A stretch of DNA of 64,000 nucleotides from a virus: the IMG/VR virus record IMGVR_UViG_3300029305_001665. One strand, given 5' to 3'. Shown piece after piece: positions 4,295-64,000 of the stretch. The number at the start of each line of letters is the position of its first letter. Position 1 is the stretch's first letter. The notes under the pieces were generated by a model. It searched no databases. It was not told the DNA's origin and was given only the letters and a program-made list of their open reading frames with translations. Both the position numbers and the translations under genes were made by a program.

Positions 4295-4296
4295 GA

Positions 4297-5970: not shown

Positions 5971-5990
5971 ATAGAGTTCTCCTTTTATTA

Positions 5991-6020: not shown

Positions 6021-6030
6021 GGCTAAAGCG

Positions 6031-6261: not shown

Positions 6262-6290
6262 ATTGTTACCTCCTTTTAATATTTCTTTTT

Positions 6291-6320
6291 ATCATAATAG
6301 AACATGAAAAAACCGCGGCT
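6291..6320 (-). promoter_or_regulatory. conserved upstream element, copy 4
   Basis: atcataatagaacatgaaaaaaccgcgg, upstream of the 6055..6261 gene. Confidence 0.4.
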
Positions 6321-6375
6321 AAAATGAAAAAGAACAGAGCCTGTGTTAGACCCTGTCCTTCTTGAATTAAATTAT

Positions 6376-15497: not shown

Positions 15498-15503
15498 GAT
15501 TCG

Positions 15504-17135: not shown

Positions 17136-17136
17136 A

Positions 17137-19794
17137 TTATTTACCTCCTTCTACCCTCGTGATGTTAAATGTTACTGGAACCGTTAAGTCCCTATGCTTT
17201 AACGGAAACGTCACTTGTACATTCGCCCAGTAACCCATTCCCGAAGGTTCTCTAACGTATACGTCGCCCATCCATTTTGAAAGGCGATGTAACTTATATA
17301 TGGTTTCAGTATCATCTTTACGGATTACTGCGTTCCACGTAGCGGATTCGCCGACATGGGTACCGTAATAACTGACAGGATTTTTACGTCCCGCATATTC
17401 CATAAACGCTACGTCCGGAGATATCTTCGGTTGCACGTCAACATTATACGGAAAATTAAGTACAGTTCCTTCGTAAGTAATATCTTCGTCTGTAGAGTCC
17501 TCATCGATTATGCCGCAGTCTTCTCCCCATTGAATAATAATCGATTTACATCCAACGGGGTATCCCGCTATATCGGCGTATAAAGTCAAGTCAGTTGCGG
17601 TATTAATAGCAACGACTCTATAACGAGCATAATCCAGCGCAGGATGCGGGTCGATTACCCACGTATTAGATAAGTTGTCGATATCGCCAGCTATTAATGT
17701 AAACGAGCCGTCGTATTCCCGTCTGTATACATATAGAGAAATATTTTCGACTAATTCGTCGTCTCTATCGGTACAATACGGCCGTATGCTAGCCGTATAT
17801 CCCTCAGTGTCTACCGAGATTTCAGCATCAACCGTATAATATTCCGGTTGGTCCCACGTTAAAACTGCCGTGAATGATTTGGATACCGTTAAACCAGAAT
17901 CCATAGCAACCGTGCAAGTAATAATGTAAGATGTATCGGAACTTAAGGTGGTTTCCCCAGCAGATATACTAATGTCAACTTTATTATCCGTGATAAAGCT
18001 ATCGTAATGTTTGGAATATATAACTTCCCCTTTTGCTATCCTAATCGTATCGCCAAAATTATTTACGACGCTGTGCGTACGGTTGGCTTTTATTTCTACA
18101 TGATAGCCAATTGCATTCTGCGCGTCTGGACCAGCAACAGCTTCGATATAAAGGGGTAATTCTTCAATATTGTAAGTAGTGTCGGCGGTTAACTCATCTC
18201 CAGCCCTATTTCGCAGTGTTAAAGTGGGATTCGTATATACTTCGAGAGTCCTAACTGCTGACCATTCACCGAACGATCCGGTCTCCTCTGCTGTTCTAAC
18301 GCGCCATCTAATGCGACAACCGTTTTCGCATACTATATCGTATTCGCTACGGTCGTTTTCGCTTAATTGACTCAGTATGCATAGAGTATAGGAATGTTGA
18401 GTATATTCTTCTACTTTATTATTTCTATCCATATGTACTATGGTAGGAATTATTTTTCTTACGAAACCGCTACCGCTTCCATCATCTACATACAAATCTA
18501 TCTGCGAATATTTTGGGTACTTTTGTTTATTATTGGTATTATTTCCACCGGTTTCGCTATTGGTTTCAATTTTTTGATTATGAATCCATTTTAAAGTAAT
18601 CAGTTCGTTAAGTTCGTATCTGGCTTTATCAGTAAAACTAGTCGGCGATAAAGGAGCGCCATCAACGTGCGTGCATGACGTCTCTGACCACTCCGATTTA
18701 TTACCGTTGTTTTGACCATTAGTGGCCATAATGCGAACATACCAATATCCTGTAGTGACACCGTCTCTCAATATAGCCGAACACGAAGTTATGCTCTGTA
18801 CGGTATATTCTTTTTTGACGCTATCTTCGCCAGCATTATCTGGATCATCGAAACATTTTAAATCGTTAGTGTATTCGACAATATAACCAGTCGCCGACGG
18901 AACTGCATCCCAGGCAATTTCAATAGAAGAATCATCCGCTCCTAATTGGCATTTCGTCATCGTAGGCGGCTTGGGAGCTATGGCTATTTTTTCGGAGTAT
19001 TGAGTCCACGCGCTTACTTTTTCTGCTTTGCATGCTCTAGCACGTATCTGATATACAGAGCCAAGCTCTACAGTGACCTGAGTGCTAACGTAGCTAGCTT
19101 TTTTAAGGTCTACCGCTACTTTAATTACGTTAGAAAGAGGAGCACCATCTTTAATCAAATTAAATTGAATCGAGGTTGCGTTAAGATCCTCAGTAATATT
19201 AGATAACGAAATTGTTATTTTTTTGGTATCAATACTGGTGTCGTATTCCCAGCCAATATCGCCAACAGAAGGAACCTTAGGCGGGTTTTTACTGAACGAA
19301 TAAGTCTGTCTAGTTGACCAGGCCGAATTCGTCCAGTGTGATACTTCCCTGCCTTTAGTGTTCTGGTATGTTTTAGAAATCGGCTTAACTCTGACGCGCA
19401 CACTAGTAGCTGCATCACTAGCTTGAAACTCGGCGCCATAATTAGAAACGCCGCTAGTAGCTTCTATAGTTTGCGTAGTGTAGTGCCAGTAGTTATTATA
19501 ATACTGCGACCATTCGACACTAAATTCTTTAGTATTGGGTTTTGACCACGACCAAGTTGCATATACATCTCTATCACCAGCATTAGTCTGTAAGCCTATT
19601 TTAAGACCACTAACTTTGGTGTTAGTCGCGGACACAGTGGTTTTATCGCCGCTTAGCTTGAGGACTTGCCCTACATATATCTTATCGGGGTCCGCAATAT
19701 TGTTTAATTTTACCAAGGTATTGACAGTTGTTTTATAATCTAACGCTATTTGGCTAAGCGTGTCTCCCCATTTTACGGTATATGTAGTAGCCAT
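17137..19794 (-). CDS. distal tail protein with N-terminal LysM domain
   Basis: 885 aa. N-terminal [43 protein letters not shown] is a LysM peptidoglycan-binding motif. Immediately downstream of the tape measure gene. Confidence 0.55.
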
Positions 19795-35543: not shown

Positions 35544-36392
35544 TTATTTCTTTTTCTTTTTCTTTTCGGTTTCTTTTTTAGCTAATTTTACGCTGTTTCC
35601 GACGTATCGAGTGTTGAGCCAGCTACTTCCGCGATCGGAGCTATCTTTAACGTGATTATAAGGGTCTTCCATCGAGTACTCGCTAGATTCGGTCTTATAT
35701 TCGTAAGATGCTTCAGACTTGGTTTCTTTCTTAGGTTCTTCTTTCGGCTTTTCGTCAGATTTCTTCGGTTCTTCCTTCTTAGGTTTCTCTTCGGATTTCT
35801 TAGGCTCTTCTTTCGGCTTTTCGTCAGATTTCTTAGGCTCTTCTTTCGGCTTTTCGTCAGATTTCTTCGGTTCTTCCTCAGCCTCTTCCTCAGCCTTCTT
35901 TTCTTTCTTACCGAAAATCGCATCGTGCGCTTTCCTTGTCTTATCTAATGTCAGATCCTTTGCCTTACGCTTCTGCTCGGCCTTTTCCCTAAGTCCAAAT
36001 AAATTACCAAAGGGAGTCTTTTCATCGATTACGTCAGTAAGAGCATCTACGCCAGCATTGGCATAGTGATCCACGAATCTTTTAGCGGAGTTCTTACCGG
36101 TGTCGATCATTAGACCTTTAAACCATTCAGCTACTTTTTCTTTATTAGACATAGTAGCTTTTCTGTATCTTTCTTCCGCTTCTATACGAGACGTCACGTC
36201 GTTAATTTCCTTAGTGCTCATGGCTTTAAGGCTTTTGCGTTCTAACGTCTTCTTATAATCAGCATGTTCTTCGTCGTCATCGTTATCGGCTTTAGCTTGG
36301 GCACGTTTCTGGTTGAGCTCATACTGCTGCTTCTTTCTGTGACCCCATCGCATGCCGGGAACGCCATAATGGAGAAGTTCTTTATCATCCAT
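35544..36392 (-). CDS. Lys/Glu-rich tandem-repeat protein in the position where a terminase small subunit is expected
   Basis: 282 aa. C-terminal tandem repeats SDEKPKEEPKK, which are 33-bp DNA repeats around 35700..35890. No recognisable terminase-small-subunit HTH. Confidence 0.4.
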   Translation of the reverse strand: MDDKELLHYGVPGMRWGHRKKQQYELNQKRAQAKADNDDDEEHADYKKTLERKSLKAMSTKEINDVTSRIEAEERYRKATMSNKEKVAEWFKGLMIDTGKNSAKRFVDHYANAGVDALTDVIDEKTPFGNLFGLREKAEQKRKAKDLTLDKTRKAHDAIFGKKEKKAEEEAEEEPKKSDEKPKEEPKKSDEKPKEEPKKSEEKPKKEEPKKSDEKPKEEPKKETKSEASYEYKTESSEYSMEDPYNHVKDSSDRGSSWLNTRYVGNSVKLAKKETEKKKKKK

Positions 36393-36427: not shown

Positions 36428-37315
36428 TTAGCAGAAAATGTCCTGCCAAAACACAGGTTTATGAGTTGCTTTTAATCTATTATATGATGCAACAAATGCT
36501 GATTTAATACCATCAGTTAATTGATTTTCATGAGTGAAAAATTCTACGAATTTGTTAACATTAGCGTACTCAATATCAGTATTATATGAACCTGTATTAT
36601 ATAAGTTGCTACCTTCTTGTGTTCTCACAAAATGTAATTGAGTTGATGGGTCAAATAGATAATCGTGTTTATTAATATAAGTATTAAATTCTTCTTCTAA
36701 ATAATATGACTGTCTAATTCCACCATCTGATGCATTAATTGCTGCTAAAAACCCACGACAGCCGCAAGGCGCATCTCTCATCGCCTTACAAGCTTCTAAC
36801 GAACCTGCAAAGTTGTGTAAACGCGGTATTCTATCAATACATTCAGACGAACCGGTAATATTAATTAATGCGTTGATAGTTTTCGAGTAAGCTTCAGTCG
36901 CAGTTTCGGCAGTTGCAGAGGCGTAATTAATACCACTATACAATGCGTGAAAACCAAATTTTAACCAGCTACTATTCGCTTTAAATTCTGAACGCCAAGT
37001 AGTAGGAACCATATCAAGAGTGAAAGTTGGATTGCTCGATGCGTTCTGATAGAAGCAATAACAGCTAATAGTTACGCCAGTATCTTCATGAAATTTCTTT
37101 AGCCAAGCAAACATTGAATTGTCAAAAATCGACGCTGGTTTATTGTTTGTTAAATCTTCAAAAGCTAAATAAAAATCGTCTATTGAAAAATGACTATATT
37201 TGTTGTATTCGTCAGCAACAATCCAGTCTTCAATGTGATTGAAATGCTCAGCTTTTAACACTGTTCCCTCAGTAGTTTCTGTTTTATCTACAAATGTCTG
37301 ACGTTTATAAGCCAT
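36428..37315 (-). CDS. hypothetical protein (295 aa)
   Basis: Intact ORF with RBS. Confidence 0.45.
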   Translation of the reverse strand: MAYKRQTFVDKTETTEGTVLKAEHFNHIEDWIVADEYNKYSHFSIDDFYLAFEDLTNNKPASIFDNSMFAWLKKFHEDTGVTISCYCFYQNASSNPTFTLDMVPTTWRSEFKANSSWLKFGFHALYSGINYASATAETATEAYSKTINALINITGSSECIDRIPRLHNFAGSLEACKAMRDAPCGCRGFLAAINASDGGIRQSYYLEEEFNTYINKHDYLFDPSTQLHFVRTQEGSNLYNTGSYNTDIEYANVNKFVEFFTHENQLTDGIKSAFVASYNRLKATHKPVFWQDIFC

Positions 37316-37326
37316 ATACTACCACC

Positions 37327-38061
37327 TTATAATAATGTGAAATCAGCTAATGTTACAGTTGAGCTTGTAAAATTCGTATACATAAAGCCTGCGCATTTTT
37401 TCCAAGTTTCGTTCGCAACATACGTGCTGCAGTCAAAAGATGATTGAGTAACGCCGTTGACCGATAAAGTTGCGGTATTTCCACTCCATGTCACACTTAG
37501 AGTATCTCCTTGCGCGAATGTGCTTGTAGCGGCAGCATCAGTCGTTAATACTCCGCCGCCAAACGTTGTATAGTCATAACGTTGTAAGTTGGTGCCAATA
37601 TCAGCACCACGAGGACGAAACGCAAGTATGTTGCTATCGTATCTGCCGATGATAACCATACGTCCACCGTCGCTAGCAGATGCCGCGGGTGAAACAAAAC
37701 TAAAGTTTTGGTTAGTATTCTTCATAAATACGACAGCTTTATTATTAGTCGCTGTAACAGTAGGAACACCGTTTTCTTCTGTTACAGTGGCCAATCCGTC
37801 GGGCGAGTATACTTCCCATTCGGCTTCGCCTTCTTCTACTATATAAACAACCTCATTTGAATAATCGCTATCTTCATAACCATCTGCTTTTGCTTTAACA
37901 ACTAAAGTGTGTGAACCTGCTTCTAGATTTAATGCCGACACTTCAAAATTTATTTCACTTGAAGTTGTGAGTTCTGAATAAGTACCATCCGATGCTTTTT
38001 CATTGAGACTATACTGAGTCGCATTGGATACCGGATTTCCTTTTATATATGTTTTTGCCAT
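37327..38061 (-). CDS. Ig/FN3-like domain protein (244 aa)
   Basis: N-terminal beta-sandwich-like sequence (TLVVKAKADGYEDSDYSNEVVY). Confidence 0.4.
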   Translation of the reverse strand: MAKTYIKGNPVSNATQYSLNEKASDGTYSELTTSSEINFEVSALNLEAGSHTLVVKAKADGYEDSDYSNEVVYIVEEGEAEWEVYSPDGLATVTEENGVPTVTATNNKAVVFMKNTNQNFSFVSPAASASDGGRMVIIGRYDSNILAFRPRGADIGTNLQRYDYTTFGGGVLTTDAAATSTFAQGDTLSVTWSGNTATLSVNGVTQSSFDCSTYVANETWKKCAGFMYTNFTSSTVTLADFTLL

Positions 38062-38078
38062 TTTGATTTTTATCTCCT

Positions 38079-39227
38079 TTATTTATAAGTTACTTTAATT
38101 TCAATAGTTACTGTCTCGCCAACATATGACCCATATACCGTGCCAGAAACTTGATATATTCCTGAAGAGGTTTTAGAATACGAAAAATTATCGATGTTGT
38201 CGCCTATGGGTTCGAACGATTCGACCTCTCTATCAGTGTTAAACTGCGCCAATAACGCGCCCGTATAAAGTTGTGCAGCGCCAGGCACTTGAGTATCAAT
38301 CGTTACTGTATATGTTAATATTTCGCTACCTTCAAGTTCTTCAAGATATATTACAGGTGCTTCTAATTTCGGTAACGTGTCTTCTGTGGTTTCGAGATAA
38401 ATAACCGGAGTATCTAATTTAGTTACTATTGGTTCATCCGGTTCATCAGGAATTTCTTCCTCTATGGTTTCGAGGTAGATTTCAGGAGTATCTAATTTAG
38501 TTACTATTGGTTCATCGGGTTCATCAGGTTCGTCAGGTTCATCGGGAATTTCCTCCTCTATGGTTTCAAGGTAAATTACCGGTGTTTCCAATTTCAGAAC
38601 TTCAGGTTCATCTGGTTCATCAGGAATTTCTTCCTCTATGGTTTCAAGGTAAATTACCGGAGTTTCCAATTTCAGAACTTCAGGTTCATCTGGTTCTTCG
38701 TTAGATATAGTTTCGAGATAGATTTCAGGAGTATCTAATTTCAGAACTTCAGGTTCGCCCGGAGTTTCATCATATATATGTTCAAGGTAAATTACCGGTG
38801 TATCTAATTTTTCAAGCCCGGATATTTCGCTGTTACCCAGAACCGCACGGCCAAGTATAGCTCTACCTAGAATAGCACTAGAATTCGGTTGAACTTCTTC
38901 GTCAGTTTCAAGATAAATACTAGGCGTGTCTAGTTTTCTAAGTTCTACTTTCGCGAGCTCCAGTATCTTATCTGACAGGTCTAATACCGAGACATTAGCG
39001 TTAGTTTTTGATTTAACCCTATACGCATTAGCAATGTCGACCAATGTTTGGTGCTTTATTGCGTAAAACTCGTGCGTTGCTTCCTCGGCACTTCCCGTTA
39101 CTGTCCCGTCAATTAAAGTATTCGCCAAAGAGGATACTGGAATGTTCTCCGTTATACCGTATACTTGACGAATAGCATCGGCGATAGAAACAAGAGTTGA
39201 GCGCTGTATAAGGTAAATCGTAGACAT
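38079..39227 (-). CDS. acidic tandem-repeat protein
   Basis: 382 aa. Eight or more repeats of KLDTPVIYLETIEEEIPDEPDEP(E/I)V(L/T). Confidence 0.5.
   Translation of the reverse strand: MSTIYLIQRSTLVSIADAIRQVYGITENIPVSSLANTLIDGTVTGSAEEATHEFYAIKHQTLVDIANAYRVKSKTNANVSVLDLSDKILELAKVELRKLDTPSIYLETDEEVQPNSSAILGRAILGRAVLGNSEISGLEKLDTPVIYLEHIYDETPGEPEVLKLDTPEIYLETISNEEPDEPEVLKLETPVIYLETIEEEIPDEPDEPEVLKLETPVIYLETIEEEIPDEPDEPDEPDEPIVTKLDTPEIYLETIEEEIPDEPDEPIVTKLDTPVIYLETTEDTLPKLEAPVIYLEELEGSEILTYTVTIDTQVPGAAQLYTGALLAQFNTDREVESFEPIGDNIDNFSYSKTSSGIYQVSGTVYGSYVGETVTIEIKVTYK
38370..38830. repeat. imperfect tandem DNA repeats (~60-78 bp units) encoding the acidic peptide repeat
   Basis: Recurring ggtttcgaggta(g/a)at...tctaatttcagaacttcaggttcatc units. 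Confidence 0.6.
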
Positions 39228-39520
39228 TAGACGCTAACCTCCTCGGCATTATGTACTTCTATTGGCTCTAATTCGCCATTAGCATTTACTTTGTAGTAGT
39301 TGCCTTCTTCGTCAGATGCGACTTTAAGCGGCACATCGACGACAATAGTAGCTTTATATATTCCGTTATACTCTACATCAGGATACATATTGAATGTTCC
39401 GTTTTTGGTAATAGAGGTGGATTTTTCTTGTACTTTAAATTCTATTTCGCCAGTTCCCGCATGTCTATCCAATGCGGGCTTGGCTTCTTTTATAAATAAT
39501 TTTTCTAACCAATTGCTCAT
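39227..39520 (-). CDS. hypothetical protein (97 aa)
   Basis: Intact ORF with RBS. Its stop overlaps the next gene start. Confidence 0.45.
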   Translation of the reverse strand: MSNWLEKLFIKEAKPALDRHAGTGEIEFKVQEKSTSITKNGTFNMYPDVEYNGIYKATIVVDVPLKVASDEEGNYYKVNANGELEPIEVHNAEEVSV

Positions 39521-39523
39521 AAA

Positions 39524-41764
39524 TCACCTCTTAAATTTCCAGGGAACATAATCTTTTTTGCCGGTATAAAGAATATCGTGTTCTACAATATTATGAATGA
39601 TATGTTCTCTGAGAGTATCGTAGAATTGTACGGAGCCGTTCGCGTTTTGTGCTTCGCTTTGTTCTGCGATACGCAAACCGTAGAAAATTCTATCGGGAAC
39701 TTCGAGGTAGTCCTCTCTATTATTAAGAGATTTATCATGTTTAATAAATTTCATATCTTCAATATGATACATATTACTAAACCGATTGCCTACTAAAATA
39801 CCATTTGCGAAGAAACCGATATTATGTTCGGTCATCATATTAAAATATCTAACTGTTTTATCAGTCATAGGTTCGCAAGATACTACAATGGGCATACTAC
39901 CATCTTGTTTAAAGGTGTGTTCGCTTCCCATTTTGAAATTATTCGCATATATGAACTTTCCTTGCTCATAGTTAAAGAATCTATGGGAATTATGTTTTGC
40001 GCCAACAAGATCGATTTCAGTTCCGTCGCTAAGCACCGTATGCCAATATTTTGGCGAAACTCCCGGCGTCATAATCCAACACGGTTTTCTTGATTCTAAT
40101 TTACCTTCATCGAAGTTCCAAGTTAATAACTCATCATCGTAGGTAATTTCTTCGATAGGTTTAGTGCTACCGTCAGCAAGCGTAACCAGACTACCTTCTA
40201 CTATACATTCGTTGTATGCCGAACAAGATCCATCTGCGGTGACCTTTAATAAAGTCCAACCACTACCGGCGTCTTCCTCTGTTACACCAGAAGCATCTGA
40301 AATTATTACTCCGTAAGAGGAGGAATTGCCGACTAAATAAAGATATCCTGATGTACAGTCAACGGTGGTTGTACTAGAAATCGTTCCAAGAGAAGTTCCT
40401 GAAGCATCAGTTCCGTCATACACCGTAATTGAATTATATGTAGGGGTTATCGCAACCTTATATACAGTTCCAGTTTCACCTTCGTAGGTTCCCGTTACAC
40501 CTAAAATAACCACACCTTTTTTAATGTTTGCGGATAGTATATTAGGGTCTATCGCGGAAGTAACTCCTCTTATCGTTATTTTGTTAAATCCATCTACAGT
40601 AAAATTAGAAGAATCTATTGTATTATCCGATGTGCTGGGATCGACGTTAATTGCAGTTAAATTCATTTTATTAACAGTAACCGTCCCCAAACCGTCATAG
40701 CCTTCGTCAGCAGTTATTGTTTGGTCAGAAGTGGAAGGGCTTACCGTTTTGTCTTGTAATACCGGATCACCACTGGAAGGAACCGCTATAGTTGCGGTTA
40801 CTTTGCCAATGCCGTAATAACCTTCGGGAGTTTCTATAACATATTCTCCGTTTTCGGTTATTTCACCCGCATCGATATCTGTTAATTCGTGAACAGGCGG
40901 TTCGACATTTACCGTTACTTTACTCAGCCCATCGTAGCCTTCGTCTGCGGTATATTCTCCGTTGACCGTAGCGGTCTTTGTCTGTAAATTAGGATTAGGA
41001 TGCTGAACATGCACTATTACTTCTCCAAGACCGCAATAGCCGTTGTCTGGAGTAATTGTTACGTCCTCTTGTGTTATCGTTTCTTTATTTTGAAGTGAGG
41101 GTAGGATTAGTAAGGAATTGCGACACTGTTTATCTTCGGATGCTAACTCTACGCCATTTGTACTTGTTAAAGGTACTATATGCTCGAATAGCAATGCGAA
41201 GTATTCCGGATAAAATATCTCGGAAAATGAATTAGTAGAGACGCTTATCGGTTCATCGTGTTTTACTGCGCTGCAATAATGTCCAATCGTATCAAATTCT
41301 ACTTTATACCATCCTTCCTCAGTGTATGAAGTTCCTAAATCCTCGTTCACTTCGGGAAGATGCGCTGATGTAAAATACCAGTACGCATATTCAAAACCGT
41401 CACTCCTCACGGATAGCGTTGCTCTCGCTATACCGCTTTCTAATGCTCCTTGAGTGAAGTATATATAACCGTCAGAACGACCGTTAATCGTTAAATACCT
41501 TGCGACGCGTCTTTCGGCTTGTCCATCGTCATATTTAAATGTCGGTTTTTCGGGCATATTTGCCGATCGCAGATATCCATGAAAATAGTCAGTATAATCA
41601 AGCGCGCCGCCGTGGGTTGTATATTCGCCATTGTATACGGGTATATCGATAGTGACCGAATTTAACCCATACCAATGTTCGTCTGCCGTAACTACAGTGC
41701 CGTTTTCGGAAATTGTTTTATCCTGTAGTTTAGGCTCTATTAATAATTTTTTAAATGTTGCCAT
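39524..41764 (-). CDS. fibre-like repeat protein with C-terminal Hint (Hedgehog/intein-like, BIL-type) domain
   Basis: 746 aa. Internal (D/E)GYDGLG.VTV.V repeats. C-terminal block CIVEGSLVTLADGSTKPIEEI matches intein block A, Cys codon at 40205..40207. TPGVSPKYWHTVL is a TxxH-like block. FFANGILVGN is a degenerate C-terminal block with no downstream nucleophile. Confidence 0.55.
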   Translation of the reverse strand: MATFKKLLIEPKLQDKTISENGTVVTADEHWYGLNSVTIDIPVYNGEYTTHGGALDYTDYFHGYLRSANMPEKPTFKYDDGQAERRVARYLTINGRSDGYIYFTQGALESGIARATLSVRSDGFEYAYWYFTSAHLPEVNEDLGTSYTEEGWYKVEFDTIGHYCSAVKHDEPISVSTNSFSEIFYPEYFALLFEHIVPLTSTNGVELASEDKQCRNSLLILPSLQNKETITQEDVTITPDNGYCGLGEVIVHVQHPNPNLQTKTATVNGEYTADEGYDGLSKVTVNVEPPVHELTDIDAGEITENGEYVIETPEGYYGIGKVTATIAVPSSGDPVLQDKTVSPSTSDQTITADEGYDGLGTVTVNKMNLTAINVDPSTSDNTIDSSNFTVDGFNKITIRGVTSAIDPNILSANIKKGVVILGVTGTYEGETGTVYKVAITPTYNSITVYDGTDASGTSLGTISSTTTVDCTSGYLYLVGNSSSYGVIISDASGVTEEDAGSGWTLLKVTADGSCSAYNECIVEGSLVTLADGSTKPIEEITYDDELLTWNFDEGKLESRKPCWIMTPGVSPKYWHTVLSDGTEIDLVGAKHNSHRFFNYEQGKFIYANNFKMGSEHTFKQDGSMPIVVSCEPMTDKTVRYFNMMTEHNIGFFANGILVGNRFSNMYHIEDMKFIKHDKSLNNREDYLEVPDRIFYGLRIAEQSEAQNANGSVQFYDTLREHIIHNIVEHDILYTGKKDYVPWKFKR

Positions 41765-41765
41765 T

Positions 41766-43679
41766 TTATTCCTCCGTTATGCTCTCCGACGTACCCTGGA
41801 CTGCGTATACTATGTCATCTCCGGTAACTTTGATTACACGATAATTTTCATTATCTTCTATTTTTTCAGTATTTTCATATAGACTAATGAATGTGTACCA
41901 ATCATACGTATCGGTAGTAATTTTACGAGCCTGATCGAAATATATAGTATGATACTCTTCACCTTTATATGACGGTATTAATGCGTAATTCGAATCAGAA
42001 AGTATATTACCGCCTATAGTAGCTGAAAAACTACCTAAAGTTTCGTCCGGATTATCGTAAACTTTGAATTCTTTAGTTCCGGACTCTCCAATTACTAACA
42101 CTTTATATGAGTCGCTGGCAGGCTTTTGATCTTGCCCTGTTTCCGGTACGATGGTGATCTCTCCATCGCTTTCGACTAAAAATATAGCGCTGTCATTAGT
42201 CACATCCAAATAAGTAATATTTCCGGTTATATTTTGTATGTTTAACCAGCTATATTCATCCATAGGGTTTTCTAACTTAACGCATAAAAGTTTACTAGAA
42301 CAAGAAACCGTAGCAATATCTTGTCCATTATAACCTAAAGGACCTTGCAATAGATTTATTAGCTCCGAATGCAATATATCTTCGGTATCCATAGCATAGA
42401 CGCCTATTTCGCCCCATGTATCTTCGGGTACATTTATCGTTACGATATACTCGTTCGAGTCGGATACATTATCATCGTCGATTTTCATAATACCTGTTTC
42501 GACATGAATTGTTGCTTCGCCGTTAACGTTAAATTTAATAGCTGACGTACCGGTTGTTGACTCAGTCTCAATGTCTCCTGTACAATTAAAGTCGGAGAAA
42601 AATGGATGATAATCATCATTTCGGTCTTTCATTACTATATATAAGCATCCAGAAGTACATGTTACCTCAACGTTTGTTTTGTAATATGGATACTCTTCCA
42701 ATTTACCAACCAATGTTTCTTCTGATATACCATCTGGAGACGATGTATCGTAAACAAATATCGTTCCTTTGCGAGTATTTCCAGAAGTTATAGATACAGA
42801 ATGTTCGAACATTTCCGGATCTTCCGTCTCCTCTTCTTTTCGATTAGTAGTTGCGACGGCAGTTATACTGGCATCGCTATTAACTTTGAATAGTCGTCCG
42901 ATTCTACTCGATGAAATAAGAGTCATGTTCCCTGAAGTTACGTTTACTGTTTCCCATTCTACGGCATCGGTTACATCTAATTCGAAATATAAGTAGCCAG
43001 TTTTGCAAATTACGCCCGCTTTTGCGTAAACGGACTCTTTACCTCCGCCGAACACTGCGACGCAGTTTTCTTCTCTTGCCTGAAGATTATCATCGGTATC
43101 GTATACTCGGAATTTACCGGAGTTTATGTTCTCGGCGTCAATAATAACAACATATGCGGGGTCGTCACTTGGAACGATGATTTTCTCAGTCGAAACGTAG
43201 ACATCACCGTCAGTATTTACCTTTATTATTTTATAGTTAGACTCGTCTTCGATTAATTCTAGATCTCCGTTTCTAATGGATATGCTTTTAATTTCATTAT
43301 CGTACCCATCTTTGACTTTGATAAATAAATATCCTGATATACATTCGACAATATCCTTTGTTACTATATCTAATTTACCATTAGGAAGAAATGTTAACGG
43401 ATCTCTTAAAGCTCGCACTCCATCGCTATCATATATCTCAAATGGAGTACATGAAATGTTAGTTGTTATGGCGACCTCTGGTCTTAACATATAATATGTA
43501 TACTGAATGTATTTGTCGGTAGTCTGACCAATATAGTAATATACGCGTTCGAAATTTTTTTTGGTATATCTTTCTAATATTTCATCCATTTTATACGCGC
43601 TGTCTATTACTATCGGCACACCTTCAGGAGGCGAGACTAGACTTGCGAAAAAATATTTTTTGTCGTTAAAATAAATCAT
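41766..43679 (-). CDS. multi-domain repeat protein, paralog of the 43722..44525 gene
   Basis: 637 aa. Shares the N-terminus MIY(F/Y)NDKK with its neighbour. About six copies of a ~90-aa module ending in (V/I).C(T/K/I)(S/T)G(Y/F/C)L(Y/F). Confidence 0.5.
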   Translation of the reverse strand: MIYFNDKKYFFASLVSPPEGVPIVIDSAYKMDEILERYTKKNFERVYYYIGQTTDKYIQYTYYMLRPEVAITTNISCTPFEIYDSDGVRALRDPLTFLPNGKLDIVTKDIVECISGYLFIKVKDGYDNEIKSISIRNGDLELIEDESNYKIIKVNTDGDVYVSTEKIIVPSDDPAYVVIIDAENINSGKFRVYDTDDNLQAREENCVAVFGGGKESVYAKAGVICKTGYLYFELDVTDAVEWETVNVTSGNMTLISSSRIGRLFKVNSDASITAVATTNRKEEETEDPEMFEHSVSITSGNTRKGTIFVYDTSSPDGISEETLVGKLEEYPYYKTNVEVTCTSGCLYIVMKDRNDDYHPFFSDFNCTGDIETESTTGTSAIKFNVNGEATIHVETGIMKIDDDNVSDSNEYIVTINVPEDTWGEIGVYAMDTEDILHSELINLLQGPLGYNGQDIATVSCSSKLLCVKLENPMDEYSWLNIQNITGNITYLDVTNDSAIFLVESDGEITIVPETGQDQKPASDSYKVLVIGESGTKEFKVYDNPDETLGSFSATIGGNILSDSNYALIPSYKGEEYHTIYFDQARKITTDTYDWYTFISLYENTEKIEDNENYRVIKVTGDDIVYAVQGTSESITEE

Positions 43680-43721
43680 TAAAAAACCTCCTGAAGTACT
43701 CTAAACACATAATTATTATGT

Positions 43722-44525
43722 TTATCGTTCATAATGTGTATTTGTTTCGACGTGTATCGCACAGCCATCTGCAGTGATATAAAATATTAACCGATTATAT
43801 TCCGGTGTCATTCCGAAATGCACGTTTTCGCTGTAAGAATATTTAGAAAACCATAAATACTCTTCGTTAACGGGCAACGTGATACACAAAACATTTTTTG
43901 TGCACTGCAATGTTATTTCAGTAATATAATCTGGATAACTTTCCAGCGTTGCAACTAGATTTTCTTCATTATCTAATCCGTCATATATAAATATAGATCC
44001 AAAACGAGTATTTGCAGATGTTATCGTTACCGTAGGATATTTAGTATGCATAACAATCGAAACTGGACAATTAATTTTCGTGCACCAATAACGATTATTG
44101 ACGCCGCCGAATATAGAAATTATACTGTCTTGATCGGTCGCTATGTGCTCGCTAAAATATCCGGCTTCATCTTTTGCTATTTCGAAATACAAGAAACCGG
44201 ACGTACACGAAACGGTTATACTTTCTAGACCATTAACAGTGCCCAACAACGTTCCAGCATTTGAAGTTCCATCGTATATATTAAACGACGGAGTATCGGT
44301 GTCAAATTTAGAAATTGTTACATCCGGAAATAACTTATACCAACTGTTTTGCTCATATTGCTCGGTAGAAGGTCCGCAATAATGGTATATTTTATAATAG
44401 TTTTCTTTTTCAGTACCATTTAATAATGCTGTCATTTCAGCTTCGGTAAGAACCGGTTTAGTCATGCCCAGAACGTCTTTCGTATATTTTATTAGTGCGG
44501 TTTTTTTGTCGTTATAATAAATCAT
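43722..44525 (-). CDS. repeat-domain protein, short paralog of the 41766..43679 gene
   Basis: 267 aa. Two copies of the CTSGxLY-type module. Confidence 0.5.
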   Translation of the reverse strand: MIYYNDKKTALIKYTKDVLGMTKPVLTEAEMTALLNGTEKENYYKIYHYCGPSTEQYEQNSWYKLFPDVTISKFDTDTPSFNIYDGTSNAGTLLGTVNGLESITVSCTSGFLYFEIAKDEAGYFSEHIATDQDSIISIFGGVNNRYWCTKINCPVSIVMHTKYPTVTITSANTRFGSIFIYDGLDNEENLVATLESYPDYITEITLQCTKNVLCITLPVNEEYLWFSKYSYSENVHFGMTPEYNRLIFYITADGCAIHVETNTHYER

Positions 44526-44543
44526 GTAATACCGTCCTATATA

Positions 44544-47354
44544 TCATGTTTTTATCATACTATCAAATAAACAGTAATACATATCATAGTCACTTGGATC
44601 GCCTAAATATGCCGGTATGAATTCGAGATCTAAAGAGAAGTATTCGCCCACCTTATCGCGATCCGCTACGTTTCCTTTAATTCCGATATTCAAATTTACA
44701 CATTCTATTTCAAGGGTATGATTTTCATCGATCGGTTTTCCTTCGTTCAATACCCTTGTCGCAATTGTTATTGACAATACTTCGGAACTATTATATGCAC
44801 CACTTGAATCGCCCCGCACCATCTTTAATATTTTTACCCTATATTGCGTATCGGGGTACGGAACTACGTAATTATCTGTCGGATTTAGACGTAATGTCGT
44901 AGTCTTTTTTGTAAAACCGCTAAACCAAATAGGCTTTGTAGTAACAACTTTTCTAGAACCTGGTATTAGTGTTTGTTTAAACTCTTCTAATTCATACTGT
45001 CTGCTGATTCTTAGTAATTTCGCGATACCGTTATTTGGCACTGATAGTACTTTATATAATTCTTTTATTCTAGGATCCATAATGTAATCTCCCAGCGAGA
45101 CATTATCGACTATATGAGGATAGACTATTTCATTTAATGGTTTTTCAAACGCCTCATATGTTGGGGTAATTCCTTCTAGTTTATTAACCGGGGCGTCGCT
45201 AGCTCCCCAATATACAGTTAACGTAGCGGATTTAGATGGGGCGCCCATCTCGTAATAATACGATTTTACTTTAATATCGATTGACTTATCTACAATACCT
45301 AATGGATCGTAATCATATGTCGTTTCTTTATTACAAAATTTCACAACGTCATCGACATTATATTCACTTCCTTGAAAACCTTTAGAATATATAGAAGTAC
45401 ATATGTAACCATATAAAGTGTATACAAGTTTATTGAGATAATACTGACCTGATGGATGCAGTTCGCCGTACACTGCATCAACTCCTACTTGGCAACAAAT
45501 ATCTCTCATGATACCGTCGCCGTCATATTGATCAGGTCTTGTTAAATCGTTTTTCTTGTTTTTGAAACGGGTGTATGCATTCGATTTAGTGGAGAAACCT
45601 CTGAGTTCTACTGGTTTTGTCTCTCCATCCATGGTTACGAATACTGCTTTTGGCATGTAATTACTGGGTAATTGACTATACGTTGACGTCGTTAGAAATA
45701 TTTCAGCAGATCTATTGGCGAAAGAACTCTTATTTTTGTTTTTCATGTCCTTATATTCAGTTACATGCTGTATTATTGGCTCCGTGCCATTAGCATCATA
45801 GTAAAAACGTTTTGTCCAGTATCTTCCCGAATTGTCAGTATTCGAATCGTTGCTCGGTTGCGGTCTCGTAGATTCTGGGAATTTGATGTACGTATTGGAT
45901 CTTAGACCGTTATTGTCGTAAATATATAGTGGATTACCGTTGGCGTCATAATATTGATAACAGACCAGTTCATCTTTTATTGGCGAAACTTCTGGGAACT
46001 CAAAATCATAAGTAGTTACCATATAACTCGATGAATTATTGTTATACATCACATGCTGTTTATATTCGTCAACCACGATACCTTTCTCTAAGTAATCTAC
46101 CGTGTTCATGGTATTACTTAAATGTTCACGTGTCGTTTCTAATGATGTTTGTATATTCTCGTAGTTTTTATCAAGTTTTTCGATAGTTTCCGTAATGTAA
46201 TTCACGTCACTGTAATCGTCCGTAACAACACTAAGAATGTTCATATTATTAACGACGGCTTCGCCGTGTTTATTTTTTAAATCGTTGATTTCTTTCTCAT
46301 ATTGTTTACTTGTACCCGCGAACATCCATACGTCAGTTCCGTCAATTGTTTCTACATGATCATTCGGAGGATTTGGTAGTCTGAAATCTATTACGGGACT
46401 AGCCGGATTAGCGTTGTTAATATCAATGCTGGCAACCGGATTTTCTGCAGTCACATACTCTACTCTACCAACAGATAATTTAGGCGTTTCGCCGGTATCA
46501 CCCTTCTCGCCCTTTAGCGAAGAAATCGCTATTAAGTTTGTCCAGTTTTCGGGAGCATCTTCAGCATCACAGAGTTTCCATTGAATGTAGCCATCTGATG
46601 CTCTTAATTCGATATTATCGCCTTGTTCACCTTTTAGAGATAAGGACTCAACGACGGTACCGTCTATTTTATTTGTTATCTGGAGGATATTCTTCTCGCC
46701 GTAACCAGGATCGGTGGGATCTAAACTCAAATCTTCGACCCAGTCAAAGCTAGGAACAACTAATTTATTAAAACCTACGATATAATCGGGTGTTTCATCG
46801 GTTAATAAATCGTTATTGTTCATTCCTTTCATAACTTGAAGTACTTCGCAAATAGCGGTTGACCAGTTATAAAGAATTACACCATAAGTAGAAGGATCTT
46901 TGGGATCTGCGTTTGCACCAGCGTCAGTGCATATAAAATGAACTACGAATTCTATGTTACCAGCATATTGGGTAGCATTATTTGATATGTCCCATGAGAA
47001 ACGAAGCACTTCTTCGCCGTCATAATCTGTGGTATTGGGGTATACTTCAAGGTCCGTGACGTTGTATATATCTCTCCTCTTTTCGCTAGTAGTGGCTCCG
47101 GAATTGCGATAGTGAATTTGTACTATATTACACTCGCGCATGTCGTGGCCGTTAATATATCTTGGGATATCAAATACCATTTTAGTACTATTGGTTTCGT
47201 ACTGCATCAACGTATGTTTTTCAGTTTCTACAAATTCTTGCTCAGCTTTATCCCAAACAACGTGTATGATGCTTCTATCTTCGGGATTTATCGTGAAATC
47301 GAGTTCTTCGAATTTCATTATATCGACATTTTTAGTGTGTCCGTCTAAAGGCAT
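44544..47354 (-). CDS. large fibre-like protein with collagen-like Gly-X-Y triplets
   Basis: 936 aa. LKGEQGDNIE and LKGEKGDTGETPK collagen-like triplet runs, as often seen in phage fibres. Confidence 0.5.
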   Translation of the reverse strand: MPLDGHTKNVDIMKFEELDFTINPEDRSIIHVVWDKAEQEFVETEKHTLMQYETNSTKMVFDIPRYINGHDMRECNIVQIHYRNSGATTSEKRRDIYNVTDLEVYPNTTDYDGEEVLRFSWDISNNATQYAGNIEFVVHFICTDAGANADPKDPSTYGVILYNWSTAICEVLQVMKGMNNNDLLTDETPDYIVGFNKLVVPSFDWVEDLSLDPTDPGYGEKNILQITNKIDGTVVESLSLKGEQGDNIELRASDGYIQWKLCDAEDAPENWTNLIAISSLKGEKGDTGETPKLSVGRVEYVTAENPVASIDINNANPASPVIDFRLPNPPNDHVETIDGTDVWMFAGTSKQYEKEINDLKNKHGEAVVNNMNILSVVTDDYSDVNYITETIEKLDKNYENIQTSLETTREHLSNTMNTVDYLEKGIVVDEYKQHVMYNNNSSSYMVTTYDFEFPEVSPIKDELVCYQYYDANGNPLYIYDNNGLRSNTYIKFPESTRPQPSNDSNTDNSGRYWTKRFYYDANGTEPIIQHVTEYKDMKNKNKSSFANRSAEIFLTTSTYSQLPSNYMPKAVFVTMDGETKPVELRGFSTKSNAYTRFKNKKNDLTRPDQYDGDGIMRDICCQVGVDAVYGELHPSGQYYLNKLVYTLYGYICTSIYSKGFQGSEYNVDDVVKFCNKETTYDYDPLGIVDKSIDIKVKSYYYEMGAPSKSATLTVYWGASDAPVNKLEGITPTYEAFEKPLNEIVYPHIVDNVSLGDYIMDPRIKELYKVLSVPNNGIAKLLRISRQYELEEFKQTLIPGSRKVVTTKPIWFSGFTKKTTTLRLNPTDNYVVPYPDTQYRVKILKMVRGDSSGAYNSSEVLSITIATRVLNEGKPIDENHTLEIECVNLNIGIKGNVADRDKVGEYFSLDLEFIPAYLGDPSDYDMYYCLFDSMIKT

Positions 47355-47368: not shown

Positions 47369-47704
47369 TTAATTGCTTTCTGCGTTTATGTTTAATCTAA
47401 ATTCATACTCTTTAAGTTGGTCTTTTAACGCTTCGACCACAAATGAACTTGAAGGCGGATCAAATATTAATCTACATTTAATATAAATGTAAGTTTTAAC
47501 CGCCGTCATTTTACTATAACTTTCTTCGAGGAAGTCGGTCCAAGTCTCGCCCTCTCCAGTTACCATAAAACCTTCTTTGCCGACACCGATTTGGTTCAAC
47601 GCCATGATAGCAGAGTTAATTTCTATAATGATGTCTTCATCGAAATAGGTGTATTCTTGTACAGGACCGAGTTTCTTTTTAATTGATAAAAGTATTGACT
47701 CCAT
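47369..47704 (-). CDS. hypothetical protein (~111 aa)
   Basis: Internal ATG (MESILLS) with an AGGAGAAA RBS is preferred over the upstream in-frame start. Confidence 0.4.
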   Translation of the reverse strand: MESILLSIKKKLGPVQEYTYFDEDIIIEINSAIMALNQIGVGKEGFMVTGEGETWTDFLEESYSKMTAVKTYIYIKCRLIFDPPSSSFVVEALKDQLKEYEFRLNINAESN

Positions 47705-48462: not shown

Positions 48463-48738
48463 ACTCTCAGCCTCCTTTGTATGGTTTTAGTATTAGTTGT
48501 TAAGTAGTTTGTGACAGTACTTACTAAGATCCACATGACTTTCACATGATTTATTTACCGAAAGGAGAAAGAAAAGTCCTACACCACTAATTAGCCATGT
48601 GGACCTTGGTAAATACTGCCTTTCCGCCGGGGAAAATATAGAAAAGTTTTCTGAAAATATACCCCCGGGGAAAAATATAAGACCGGCGCGATGCTAGGAG
48701 GGGGTGTATTTTTGGCGACCCCCCCCTATGTTTAATGG
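48463..48738. promoter_or_regulatory. GC-rich repeat/palindrome region at the head of the late gene block (candidate cos/pac site or late promoter)
   Basis: In otherwise AT-rich DNA: ccgccggggaaaatatagaaaag and cccccggggaaaaatataagacc direct repeats, a palindromic CCCCGGGG, and a G8...C5 hairpin (ggagggggtg...gacccccccc). Confidence 0.35.

Positions 48739-63402: not shown

Positions 63403-64000
<598 letters not shown>

What the first reader, a model, noticed from the sequence alone, without database searches (positions are those of the whole stretch)
36428..47354. 11-kb block of repeat-rich fibre/adhesin-like genes upstream of the terminase, including a paralog pair with an unfamiliar ~90-aa module
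Eight genes lie between the HNH gene and TerL. Among them are a collagen-triplet protein (936 aa), two paralogs sharing MIY(F/Y)NDKK and repeated (V/I)xC(T/K)SGxLY modules, the Hint-domain protein, an acidic tandem-repeat protein and an Ig-like protein. In siphovirus synteny, fibre genes follow the tape measure gene, and they do so here too (10285..19794). This upstream set is therefore a second, oddly placed repertoire. It could be a host-range cassette, a decoration or appendage set, or a lysogenic-conversion surface module.
Basis: partly seen in the sequence, partly recalled or inferred. Interest (0 to 1): 0.55.

Follow-up and report, generated by a model that had tools for sequence, protein, structure and literature searches.

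The report
Swappable fibre-gene cassette before the terminase
A gut phage carries an 11-kb insert of eight fibre- or adhesin-like genes in an unusual place, just before its DNA-packaging gene, and the core of this insert has been swapped between almost identical phages, which suggests it helps decide which bacteria the phage sticks to.

Summary
The block is real: eight tightly packed minus-strand genes at 36428-47354. They lie between a head-tail adaptor gene (PF24829) and a DUF7211 gene plus TerL. So ten genes, not eight, separate HNH from TerL.

The phage belongs to the Lactococcus 1706 / Faecalibacterium Oengus / actinophage supercluster. In 66 relatives this slot is 0.3-3.8 kb and holds only DUF7211 paralogs. 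Here it is 11.8 kb.

A phage with a 97% identical backbone diverges sharply at g936 residue ~289, the collagen-like hinge. Similarity resumes inside g746.

Homologs of several parts lie in ordinary tail-fibre clusters of other phages. These parts are the g936 N-domain, the "GYDGL" repeats and the module-Hint unit.

The ~95-aa CTSGxLY module is a rare domain with no Pfam family: 32 hits among 1.84 billion representatives. Its predicted fold resembles the Ig-like domains of Gram-positive pilins and adhesins.

The Hint domain is confirmed by fold only (BIL/intein-like, invariant Cys520).

No block protein has a signal peptide, membrane segment or defence-system hit.

Best reading: a virion-borne accessory fibre/adhesin (host-range) cassette. 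Where it attaches on the virion is unknown. "Collagen-triplet protein" is overstated, and lysogenic conversion is not supported.

The parts
47369..47704 (-). Head-tail adaptor / 'virion structural protein' gene (111 aa from the ATG). It is the conserved left border of the slot.
   Evidence: PF24829 Phage_connect_2 at E=8e-33 and phrog_4247 at E=3e-38. It is 100% identical in L014 and 47-55% identical in relatives. Called a head-to-tail connector in bioRxiv 10.1101/842583.
44544..47354 (-). g936, the first and largest fibre-like gene. Residues 1-288 form a conserved N-terminal domain. A distal part follows, which has been replaced in relatives.
   Evidence: Against L014's 927-aa protein, residues 1-288 are 97.6% identical, 289-780 are 28.7% identical, and 781-936 show no similarity. 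N-domain homologs P0010, P0015, P0032 and P0033 are followed by true collagen. One lies at the end of a tail cluster that follows a tape-measure gene.
46485..46511 (-). Collagen-like hinge GEKGDTGET (g936 residues 282-290). It coincides with the left recombination breakpoint.
   Evidence: Regex scan. The 97.2% nucleotide identity with L014 ends at window 46489.
40920..46489 (-). Hypervariable core of the cassette: distal g936, g267, g637 and the N-terminal third of g746.
   Evidence: L014 matches the window at 97.2% only down to 46489. L114 comes from the same sample as L014; that both belong to one phage is assumed. L114 regains 81.8% identity at 41218-40979 and 92.8% from 40920 to 38681. Inside the core, proteins are 29-47% identical.
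43722..44525 (-). g267: a shared N-terminal segment (MIYYNDKK..., about 65 aa) plus two CTSGxLY Ig-like modules (43740-44039 and 44046-44330).
   Evidence: The AlphaFold2 model gives the modules pLDDT 70-85. Foldseek matches tandem Ig-like domains of pilins and adhesins: PitA at 2e-5, B. anthracis TIE, and S. pyogenes T-antigens.
41766..43679 (-). g637: paralog of g267 with the same N-terminal segment and 4-5 modules (43188-43484, 42852-43154, 42492-42806, 42144-42452, plus a degenerate fifth).
   Evidence: The profile search reports 5 matched stretches.
39524..41764 (-). g746. It has 'GYDGL' repeats of about 40 aa (one at the N-terminus, four at 40475-41137), then one Ig-like module (40211-40465). 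A Hint/BIL-like domain follows (residues 520-660, 39785-40207; Cys520 codon at 40205-40207), then an 86-aa C-terminal tail (39527-39784).
   Evidence: Foldseek top hits are the BIL2 domain (6y75, 6tmm; E~1e-4, probability 1.0), mini-inteins, C. thermocellum BIL and the hedgehog autoprocessing domain.
39227..39520 (-). g97: a small protein holding one GYDGL-type repeat.
   Evidence: Weak similarity to GYDGL-repeat proteins of L002 and L111. Its stop overlaps the g382 start.
38079..39227 (-). g382: two N-terminal 'L..IADAIR' motifs, then about 8 acidic proline-rich tandem repeats (DNA 38359-38825), then a C-terminal domain.
   Evidence: pI is 4.05. One contig (L006) encodes a 356-aa form and aligns with indels in the repeat region.
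37327..38061 (-). g244: possible Ig-like N-terminal domain. The rest is unassigned.
   Evidence: Shr-like_HID at E=2.5e-4, 21.9 bits, just under the cutoff. No phage homolog by tblastn.
36428..37315 (-). g295: the last gene of the block. Its residues 39-263 form a domain shared with the distal half of a streptococcal phage 'neck protein'.
   Evidence: 35% identity, E=9e-36, to Streptococcus phage Mushu CDS0056. That protein's N-terminus matches phrog_19519 'neck protein'. Its gene lies after the tail-fibre genes and before the lysis genes.
35544..36392 (-). g282: lysine-rich DUF7211 protein. It is the conserved right border of the slot and is not part of the fibre set.
   Evidence: PF23847 at E=2.9e-8, and phrog_7021 and phrog_14126. 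Phage 1706 orf7, annotated 'structural protein', belongs to phrog_14126. DUF7211 paralogs fill the slot in relatives.

Best explanation
The block is a lineage-specific accessory fibre/adhesin cassette made late in infection and carried on the virion. It evolves by swapping modules and most likely tunes adsorption and host range.

Shown:
- The eight genes sit in one tight string between the head-tail adaptor gene and the DUF7211/TerL genes. In relatives this slot holds only DUF7211 proteins.
- The first 288 residues of g936 are conserved with the phage backbone. Everything from the collagen-like hinge into g746 has been replaced in a sister phage.
- The proteins are built from a shared kit: Ig-like CTSGxLY modules, GYDGL repeats, IADAIR motifs and acidic repeats. 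The kit also includes a domain shared with a streptococcal phage 'neck protein' and a Hint/BIL-like domain.

Inferred:
- g936 forms a trimeric fibre anchored by its N-domain at a conserved virion site, either the neck or the tail tip.
- g267 and g637 share an N-terminal segment and dock at a common site as bead-on-a-string stalks.
- g746 cleaves itself at Glu519|Cys520 through a thioester. This removes the Hint domain and tail, much as the Peptidase_S74 chaperone is removed from other phage fibres.
- The remaining proteins add further adhesin or enzyme heads.
For: - Operon-like packing and ribosome-binding sites.
- No hydrophobic segment in any block protein (maximum 19-residue Kyte-Doolittle score 1.05 or less), and pI of 4.05-5.35.
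- Slot survey: the adaptor-to-TerL gap is 317-3838 nt, median 703, in 66 prophage relatives, and none carries a block homolog. The gap here is 11,838 nt.
- The slot is small in 1706, MT835495, Gordonia Secretariat, L028 and L029. FP_oengus holds one unrelated tail-fibre-like gene there.
- Mosaicism: the L014 backbone is 97.2% identical in DNA, with adaptor 100% and RNA polymerase 99.3%. Identity breaks at g936 residue ~289 and returns within g746.
- L002 has a backbone 83-85% identical in protein, but its block proteins are 32-49% identical and it carries an LRR_5 protein.
- Homologs sit in ordinary tail-fibre clusters: P0033, P0052 and P0054, P0035 next to an LRR_5 + Peptidase_S74 fibre, and Mushu CDS0056.
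- Folds: Ig-like pilin/adhesin type for the module, Hint/BIL for g746.
- An invariant Cys at Hint position 1 and an invariant His-Arg pair.
- In phage 1706 both genes of this slot are annotated as virion structural.
Against: - No direct evidence places any of the eight proteins in virions.
- Seven of the eight have no significant Pfam, PHROG or NCBIfam assignment. The exception is a 55-residue PHROG match in g936 (phrog_19976, tail assembly protein, E=4e-6).
- The position is not the ordinary one for fibre genes, and a full tail-tip set already exists at 10285-19794.
- Both structure models are of only moderate confidence (mean pLDDT 60 and 64; Hint part 50-67). TM-scores to pilins are low (0.2-0.33).
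- Hint cleavage is inferred only.
- Linking L114 to the same phage as L014 rests on a shared sample.
- Contigs of this phage from several metagenomes are essentially identical in the block (0-5 mismatches apart from the g382 repeat region), so no ongoing variation was seen.
Confidence: 0.62

Rival explanations
1. The proteins are virion-borne but decorative. They would be head or collar fibres that bind mucus, glycans or debris, in the manner of T4 Hoc or the lactococcal collar-whisker structure, and would not determine host range.
For: - The block lies next to the head-tail adaptor gene and among head and packaging genes.
- It has tandem Ig-like modules.
- The g295 domain is shared with a protein labelled 'neck protein'.
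- A complete ordinary tail-tip set exists elsewhere in the window.
- The block is dispensable in 66 of 66 relatives.
Against: - The sharp replacement of distal parts between near-identical phages is most typical of receptor-binding proteins.
- The closest homologs sit in tail-fibre clusters, not head modules.
- No block protein matches the anchoring N-terminal part of the neck-protein family phrog_19519.
Confidence: 0.2
2. The proteins are made late but not built into virions. They could be soluble glycan-binding or glycan-modifying factors released at lysis, or assembly helpers.
For: - Nothing places them in virions.
- g295 has conserved polar motifs (HxSIDD, FHA, FFTHE) that suggest an enzyme. 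This is by eye and untested.
- g382 is a highly acidic repeat protein that could act as a scaffold.
Against: - The g936 pattern of conserved N-domain and swapped distal part implies docking to a conserved partner.
- Homologs occupy structural fibre clusters.
- In phage 1706 both genes of this slot are annotated as structural.
Confidence: 0.1
3. The block is a lysogenic-conversion module whose proteins are displayed on the lysogen's surface.
For: - The phage is temperate: a serine recombinase lies at 7985-9349.
- The folds and partner domains are adhesin-like, including LRR_5 in L002.
Against: - No signal peptide, membrane helix or sorting motif.
- No own promoter or terminator signal above shuffled background.
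- The block is embedded co-directionally in the late packaging string.
Confidence: 0.03
4. g746 is a polymorphic-toxin-like effector: a fibre-like carrier, then a pre-toxin Hint domain, then a C-terminal toxin, with g97 as its immunity protein.
For: The domain order, repeats then Hint then a C-terminal tail, resembles polymorphic toxins. A small gene follows immediately.
Against: - The tail is only 86 aa. It is 86-98% identical in the close alleles P0034-P0036, not variable, and is reduced to about 50 aa in the Kelch-type relatives.
- It matches no toxin family and has no secretion signal.
- g97 is a GYDGL-repeat fragment.
Confidence: 0.04

Closest known systems
The adaptor-to-TerL slot of Lactococcus phage 1706 (orf6 and orf7), FP_oengus (gp62-gp66) and the actinophage supercluster
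   Same: The backbone order is the same: YonO-like RNA polymerase, small genes, phrog_4259 protein, HNH, PF24829 adaptor, slot, TerL, portal. Phage 1706 orf6 and orf7 are annotated as structural. FP_oengus gp64 in the slot matches tail-fibre PHROGs.
   Different: In those phages the slot holds DUF7211 proteins, or one unrelated fibre-like gene, in 0.4-2.9 kb. Here eight extra genes (11 kb) are inserted between the adaptor gene and the DUF7211 gene.
Phage fibres and spikes with a C-terminal self-cleaving chaperone (Peptidase_S74, e.g. K1F endosialidase and T5 pb1; from general knowledge)
   Same: Both have a fibre-like body ending in a conserved self-processing domain that is shared across divergent receptor-binding parts. 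In L111 a Hint-ended protein and an LRR_5 + Peptidase_S74 fibre lie in the same cluster.
   Different: The terminal domain here has a Hint/BIL fold with a Cys1 nucleophile, not the S74 serine-lysine fold. Cleavage has not been shown.
Bacterial intein-like (BIL) domains and the hedgehog autoprocessing domain
   Same: These are the best structural matches (6y75 and 6tmm BIL2, 2lwy, 1at0, 6tyy). Cys1 is invariant, and no downstream splice nucleophile is conserved.
   Different: No Pfam Hint model matches. The domain sits at the C-terminus of phage fibre-like proteins, always just after the Ig-like module.
Host-range cassettes that recombine at collagen-like motifs (variable region of Streptococcus thermophilus phage receptor-binding proteins; recalled from memory, not checked)
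   Same: The breakpoint between the conserved anchor and the swapped distal part falls at a G-X-Y motif.
   Different: Here several genes are exchanged together, and the cassette is not downstream of the tape-measure gene.
Ig-like stalk domains of Gram-positive pilins and adhesins (PitA, Spy0128-type T-antigens, B. anthracis TIE, GBS52)
   Same: The predicted fold is similar, and the domains are arranged in tandem like beads on a string.
   Different: There is no sequence similarity, no sortase or secretion signals, and TM-scores are low. Internal isopeptide or ester bonds were not examined.
Collar-whisker / neck passage structure of lactococcal and streptococcal phages
   Same: It is a non-essential appendage set. 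The g295 domain is shared with a Mushu protein whose N-terminus belongs to the 'neck protein' PHROG.
   Different: No block protein has the N-terminal neck-protein region. The genes lie before TerL rather than after the baseplate genes.

Membership tests
Phage receptor-binding fibre / host-range cassette | Conserved virion-anchoring N-terminus with an exchangeable distal part | tested here: met
   g936 against its L014 homolog: 97.6% identity for residues 1-288, 28.7% for 289-780, none for 781-936. The DNA breakpoint is at 46489.
Phage receptor-binding fibre / host-range cassette | Homologs located in recognised tail-fibre gene clusters | tested here: met
   L021, L024/L025, L111/L112 and Mushu.
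Phage receptor-binding fibre / host-range cassette | Gene position downstream of the tape-measure, Dit and Tal genes | tested here: not met
   The block lies between the adaptor gene and TerL. The ordinary set is at 10285-19794.
Phage receptor-binding fibre / host-range cassette | Presence in the virion and a role in adsorption | not testable with these tools
   This needs proteomics, electron microscopy and adsorption assays.
Hint / intein-like autoprocessing domain | Hint fold | tested here: met
   Foldseek: BIL2 (6y75, 6tmm) at E~1e-4 and probability 1.0, plus mini-inteins and hedgehog. The model is of moderate quality, with pLDDT 50-67 in this part.
Hint / intein-like autoprocessing domain | Nucleophile (Cys, Ser or Thr) at position 1 | tested here: met
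   Cys520 is invariant in 12 of 12 homologs.
Hint / intein-like autoprocessing domain | Block-B His that assists the N-S acyl shift | tested here: inconclusive
   An invariant His-Arg pair exists (position 170-171 of alignment A1). Its equivalence to block B was not established.
Hint / intein-like autoprocessing domain | Terminal Asn plus a downstream nucleophile (needed for splicing) | tested here: not met
   The domain ends ...ILVGN|R in g746 and ...ILTSC|K in the Kelch relatives. It is therefore not a splicing intein; at most it cleaves or transfers at its N-terminal side.
Hint / intein-like autoprocessing domain | Match to curated Hint or intein sequence models | tested here: not met
   No Pfam hit at E<0.1. 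NCBIfam intein at E=0.19.
Collagen triple-helix protein | Long uninterrupted G-X-Y tract (Pfam Collagen) | tested here: not met
   g936 has only GEKGDTGET and no Pfam Collagen hit. Its homolog P0033 does have one (E=4.6e-42).
Gram-positive pilin/adhesin Ig-like domains | Secretion signal and sortase motif | tested here: not met
   No hydrophobic N-terminus or C-terminal anchor in any block protein.
Gram-positive pilin/adhesin Ig-like domains | Shared beta-sandwich fold | tested here: inconclusive
   Foldseek E of 2e-5 to 1e-3 and probability about 1, but TM-scores of 0.2-0.33.
Neck passage structure / collar-whisker proteins | N-terminal neck-protein region (phrog_19519) | tested here: not met
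   The PHROG scan of all block proteins gave no such hit. Only the distal domain of g295 is shared.
Diversity-generating retroelement target | Reverse transcriptase and a template/variable repeat pair | tested here: not met
   No such repeat pair in the window. No reverse transcriptase was found among the ORFs scanned, which were not all ORFs of the window.
Polymorphic toxin (pre-toxin Hint plus toxin tip) | Variable C-terminal toxin domain after the Hint domain | tested here: not met
   The 86-aa tail is 86-98% conserved in close alleles, is shortened to about 50 aa in Kelch relatives, and matches no toxin family.
Anti-phage defence system | Match to PADLOC models | tested here: not met
   No hit for any of nine proteins.

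The most novel reading that the evidence does not exclude
The Hint/BIL domain of g746 and its relatives may do more than fall off. Its Cys520 thioester could be resolved by a nucleophile on another virion protein. That would covalently join the C-terminus of the fibre, which ends in the Ig-like module, to the particle or to another fibre. The closest structural match, the Tetrahymena BIL2 domain, is recalled from memory to conjugate proteins in this way. The block would then encode a covalently assembled, multi-component adhesin array, possibly mounted at the neck next to the adaptor whose gene it follows.
Probability: 0.1. Interest if true: 0.8.

Novelty: new variant of a known kind. Interest (0 to 1): 0.5.

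Why it matters
- Gut Clostridia phages are mostly uncultured, and their host-recognition proteins are largely unannotated.
- This locus shows a defined genomic slot (adaptor gene to DUF7211/TerL) that can take up a whole multi-gene fibre kit.
- It gives clear recombination joints: a collagen-like hinge and the GYDGL repeats.
- It adds a new Ig-like module family with no Pfam family.
- It shows a recurring "Ig-like module + Hint/BIL" ending on fibre-like proteins of several unrelated phages. This may be a second type of self-processing fibre maturation alongside Peptidase_S74.
- If confirmed, these features would help annotate receptor-binding genes in gut viromes and would offer swap points for engineering host range.

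Tried and rejected
- Megablast of the block against 50,697 phage records gave no match.
- tblastn of g746, g244 and g382 against phage records gave no match. g936 gave only short fibre-like matches.
- Scans of the viral-contig collection with g936 and with the adaptor found nothing.
- Sequence searches of the PDB with g746, g936, g295 plus Mushu, the g936 N-domain profile and the adaptor profile gave only collagen or chance hits.
- NCBIfam and PADLOC gave nothing useful.
- A diversity-generating retroelement reading was rejected: there is no template/variable repeat pair, and same-phage contigs are essentially identical in the block (0-5 mismatches apart from the g382 repeat region).
- An independent transcription unit ('moron') was rejected: promoter-like sites are at shuffled background, 56 against 51±6.
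- Assembly chimera was rejected: the same arrangement recurs in ten contigs read from several samples, and more carry g637.
- A conserved gene pair of adaptor-like protein plus g936-like fibre was tested and rejected. The small gene before g936-N-domain homologs elsewhere (phrog_19695) is unrelated to the adaptor.
- A literature search for Hint-ended phage fibres found only ordinary inteins in terminases.

Full report
**What is there.** All genes in this part of the window are on the minus strand. Read in the direction of transcription, the order is:
- a 1008-aa YonO-like RNA polymerase (phrog_4291)
- a 92-aa protein
- a 111-aa phrog_4259 protein
- an HNH endonuclease
- a 111-aa head-tail adaptor / 'virion structural protein' (47369-47704; PF24829 E=8e-33, phrog_4247)
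- the eight genes of the finding: g936, g267, g637, g746, g97, g382, g244 and g295 (36428-47354)
- a lysine-rich DUF7211 protein (g282, 35544-36392)
- TerL, portal, and a protease-capsid fusion
- further on, a 2316-aa tape-measure protein followed by four tail-tip genes at 10285-19794

The eight genes are separated by -1 to 42 nt, and all but g267 have a clear GGAGG-type ribosome-binding site. Ten genes, not eight, lie between HNH and TerL.

- *Paralog pair.* It is real (E=1e-14).
- *The module.* It is a ~95-105-aa unit with invariant V, I, Y, C and L (alignment A2). It occurs twice in g267, four to five times in g637 and once in g746, directly before the Hint-like domain.
- *g382.* It has about eight acidic repeats (LKLDTPxIYLE followed by a PDEPE-type linker).
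- *'Collagen-triplet protein'.* This is overstated. g936 has a single GEKGDTGET run. Its homologs carry true collagen tracts at that position.
- *The Hint domain.* Pfam and NCBIfam do not see it.
  - A model of g746 residues 425-746 was built with 11 homologs. Mean pLDDT is 60: 76-90 for the module part and 50-67 for the Hint part.
  - Its best PDB matches are BIL2 domains, mini-inteins, a Clostridium BIL domain and the hedgehog autoprocessing domain (E~1e-4, probability 1.0).
  - Cys520 is invariant.
  - The terminal Asn and a +1 nucleophile are not conserved, so this is not a splicing intein.

**The module fold and rarity.**
- A model of g267 (modules at pLDDT 70-85, N-terminal 63 residues unreliable) matches tandem Ig-like domains of Gram-positive pilins and adhesins. 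These include PitA, B. anthracis TIE, S. pyogenes T-antigens, a Mobiluncus adhesin and GBS52. E-values run from 2e-5 to 1e-3, but TM-scores are low.
- Among predicted viral structures the matches are generic. They include gut-phage tail-collar-fibre, LRR and DUF6273 proteins.
- A profile of the seven window copies finds only 32 proteins at E of 0.001 or less among 1.84 billion cluster representatives.
- The module is therefore a rare family with no Pfam family and an ordinary adhesin-type fold.

**Which phage this is.** TerL, portal, capsid, tail and RNA polymerase proteins place the phage in a known supercluster. It links Lactococcus phage 1706, Faecalibacterium phage FP_oengus and the Gordonia, Arthrobacter and Streptomyces phages. 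That group has a conserved 'HNH, head-to-tail connector, TerL, portal, protease' region (bioRxiv 10.1101/842583). A serine recombinase at 7985-9349 indicates a temperate lifestyle. The window is identical to a 71.5-kb JGI metagenome contig. The same block recurs in ten contigs read from several samples, with 0-5 mismatches apart from the g382 repeat region.

**The slot.** Across the supercluster the stretch between the adaptor gene and TerL is short.

| Relative | What lies between the adaptor gene and TerL |
|---|---|
| Phage 1706 | orf7 only, a DUF7211-type 'structural protein' |
| MT835495 | two DUF7211-type proteins |
| Gordonia Secretariat | gp12 only |
| L028 | a gap of about 400 nt |
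| FP_oengus | four genes, one matching tail-fibre PHROGs but unrelated to the block |

I also surveyed 80 TerL relatives (64-81% identity) in bacterial genomes, mostly gut Clostridia. In the 66 loci where both genes were found, the gap is 317-3838 nt with a median of 703. It is filled by one to four DUF7211 paralogs, and none has a homolog of any block gene. The window's gap is 11,838 nt. The block is thus a lineage-specific insertion between the adaptor gene and the DUF7211 gene.

**Hypervariability.**
- Only two other metagenomic phages carry a related block.
- *L014.* Its DNA is 97.2% identical to the window from 55378 down to 46489 (adaptor 100%, RNA polymerase 99.3%). There similarity collapses.
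  - At protein level, g936 is 97.6% identical for residues 1-288, 28.7% for 289-780, and unrelated after that.
  - The break falls on the collagen-like hinge.
  - L014's g267 homolog is 47% identical.
- *L114.* This contig comes from the same sample; that it belongs to the same phage is assumed.
  - It carries a g637-like gene at 32% identity.
  - Nucleotide identity is 81.8% at window 41218-40979, inside the GYDGL repeats of g746. It is 92.8% from 40920 through g97 into g382.
- *L002.* Its backbone is 83-85% identical in protein. Its block proteins are 32-49% identical, the gene set differs, and it includes an LRR_5 protein ending in the module.
- Together these results define a swapped core of about 5.5 kb (about 40920-46489) whose joints lie in repetitive linker motifs.

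**Where the parts occur elsewhere.**
- The g936 N-domain is found on collagen-bearing proteins. One of these closes a tail cluster that follows a tape-measure gene (L021). Another, in MT835485, is followed by a reverse transcriptase.
- The GYDGL repeat region of g746 has more than 900 homologs. They are joined to LRR_5, DUF285, F5/8-C or Kelch domains.
- The unit 'module + Hint + tail' is kept intact on otherwise different proteins. These lie in tail-fibre clusters of unrelated phages, after XkdX and DUF6273 genes in L024 and L025. In L111 and L112 one such protein, 81% identical over g746 residues 370-746, lies near an LRR_5 + Peptidase_S74 fibre.
- g295 residues 39-263 match the distal half of a Streptococcus phage Mushu protein (35% identity, E=9e-36). 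That protein's N-terminus belongs to the 'neck protein' PHROG, and its gene follows the tail-fibre genes.

**What it most likely does.**
- None of the eight proteins has a hydrophobic segment, and all are acidic. Promoter-like sites are at background level. No defence model matches.
- Together with the mosaic pattern and the fibre-cluster homologs, the best reading is a late-expressed, virion-borne accessory fibre/adhesin cassette that adapts adsorption.
- The following steps are inferred, not shown:
  - g936 is anchored by its conserved N-domain.
  - g267 and g637 dock through their shared N-terminal segment.
  - g746 removes its Hint domain and tail by cleavage at Glu519|Cys520, by analogy with Peptidase_S74 fibres.
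- The attachment site is open. The neck is suggested by gene neighbourhood and the Mushu link. The tail tip is suggested by where the homologs lie.
- Rivals:
  - A purely decorative appendage cannot be excluded.
  - Released non-structural factors are possible but less likely.
  - Lysogenic conversion, polymorphic toxin, retroelement target and defence cargo each failed a defining test.

**Verdict.**
- The 'second fibre repertoire / host-range cassette' idea is the best-supported reading but remains unproven without virion data.
- The kind of system is known.
- The new elements are the slot, the module family and the Hint-ended fibres, so I rate it a new variant of a known kind and of moderate interest.

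Noticed in passing
window 35544-36392; also L028, L029, L032, L073, L107 and L018: Proteins that begin with (or, in some larger ones, contain internally) the ~25-aa DUF7211 motif (HYGV/ILGMKWGxRR...) occur as 1-4 paralogs on both sides of TerL in this phage group. Phage 1706 orf7, annotated as structural, belongs to a matching family. The motif could be a capsid-targeting or processing signal; this is untested.
   Followed up: partly
window 49014-52040 (-): A 1008-aa YonO/crAss-like single-subunit RNA polymerase homolog (phrog_4291, E=0) with HTH domains. It is a signature gene of the 1706 / Oengus / actinophage supercluster.
   Followed up: partly
window about 48681 (intergenic 48463-48738): Three independent metagenome contigs of this phage begin exactly at window 48681, and a fourth within one base. 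Relatives' contigs also start about 180-220 nt upstream of the phrog_4259 gene. This may be the physical genome end (cos site) served by the HNH-TerL pair.
   Followed up: partly
window 27134-27856 (-): An amidase/endolysin-type gene (phrog_7698, E=5e-52) sits inside the tail-assembly genes, between the major tail protein gene and the tape-measure gene. This is an unusual place for a lysin.
   Followed up: no
L013 (MT835485.1) 13510-18056: An 885-aa protein shares the g936 N-domain. It is preceded by a phrog_19695 protein and followed by a reverse transcriptase (phrog_1423). This is probably a diversity-generating retroelement that targets a g936-like fibre, and it lies next to replication genes.
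   Followed up: partly
L111 4930-6627 and L112 10001-11698 versus window 39527-40657: The C-terminal half of g746 (module, Hint and tail) is 81% identical to a fibre-cluster protein of an unrelated phage (YomU-type tube, Mtd_N, Kelch). That phage comes from the same sample series as L014, which suggests recent exchange of this ending between co-resident phages.
   Followed up: partly
window 3205-3259, 4246-4300, 5973-6027, 6269-6323: A ~55-nt intergenic element (…TTTCTCATATTAGGAAATGTAAAATCCGCG…) occurs four times. Two copies are 93% alike. It may be a repeated regulatory site in the early or lysogeny region.
   Followed up: no
window 63844-63999: A long GCCAGA/GCCACA-type repeat runs off the end of the window. 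On the minus strand it would encode a Ser/Gly-rich tract.
   Followed up: no
window 888-1940 and 3256-4020 (-): Two paralogous DUF6353 proteins (each E~8e-75) lie near the integrase end. Homologs are present in MT835485.
   Followed up: no
window 20944-24180 (within the tape-measure gene 19797-26747): The 2316-aa tape-measure gene contains several families of 186-192-nt (62-64-aa) internal repeats.
   Followed up: no
window 38359-38825; L006: One contig (L006) encodes a 356-aa form of g382 instead of 382 aa and aligns with indels in the repeat region. This is either true copy-number variation of the repeats or an assembly collapse.
   Followed up: partly
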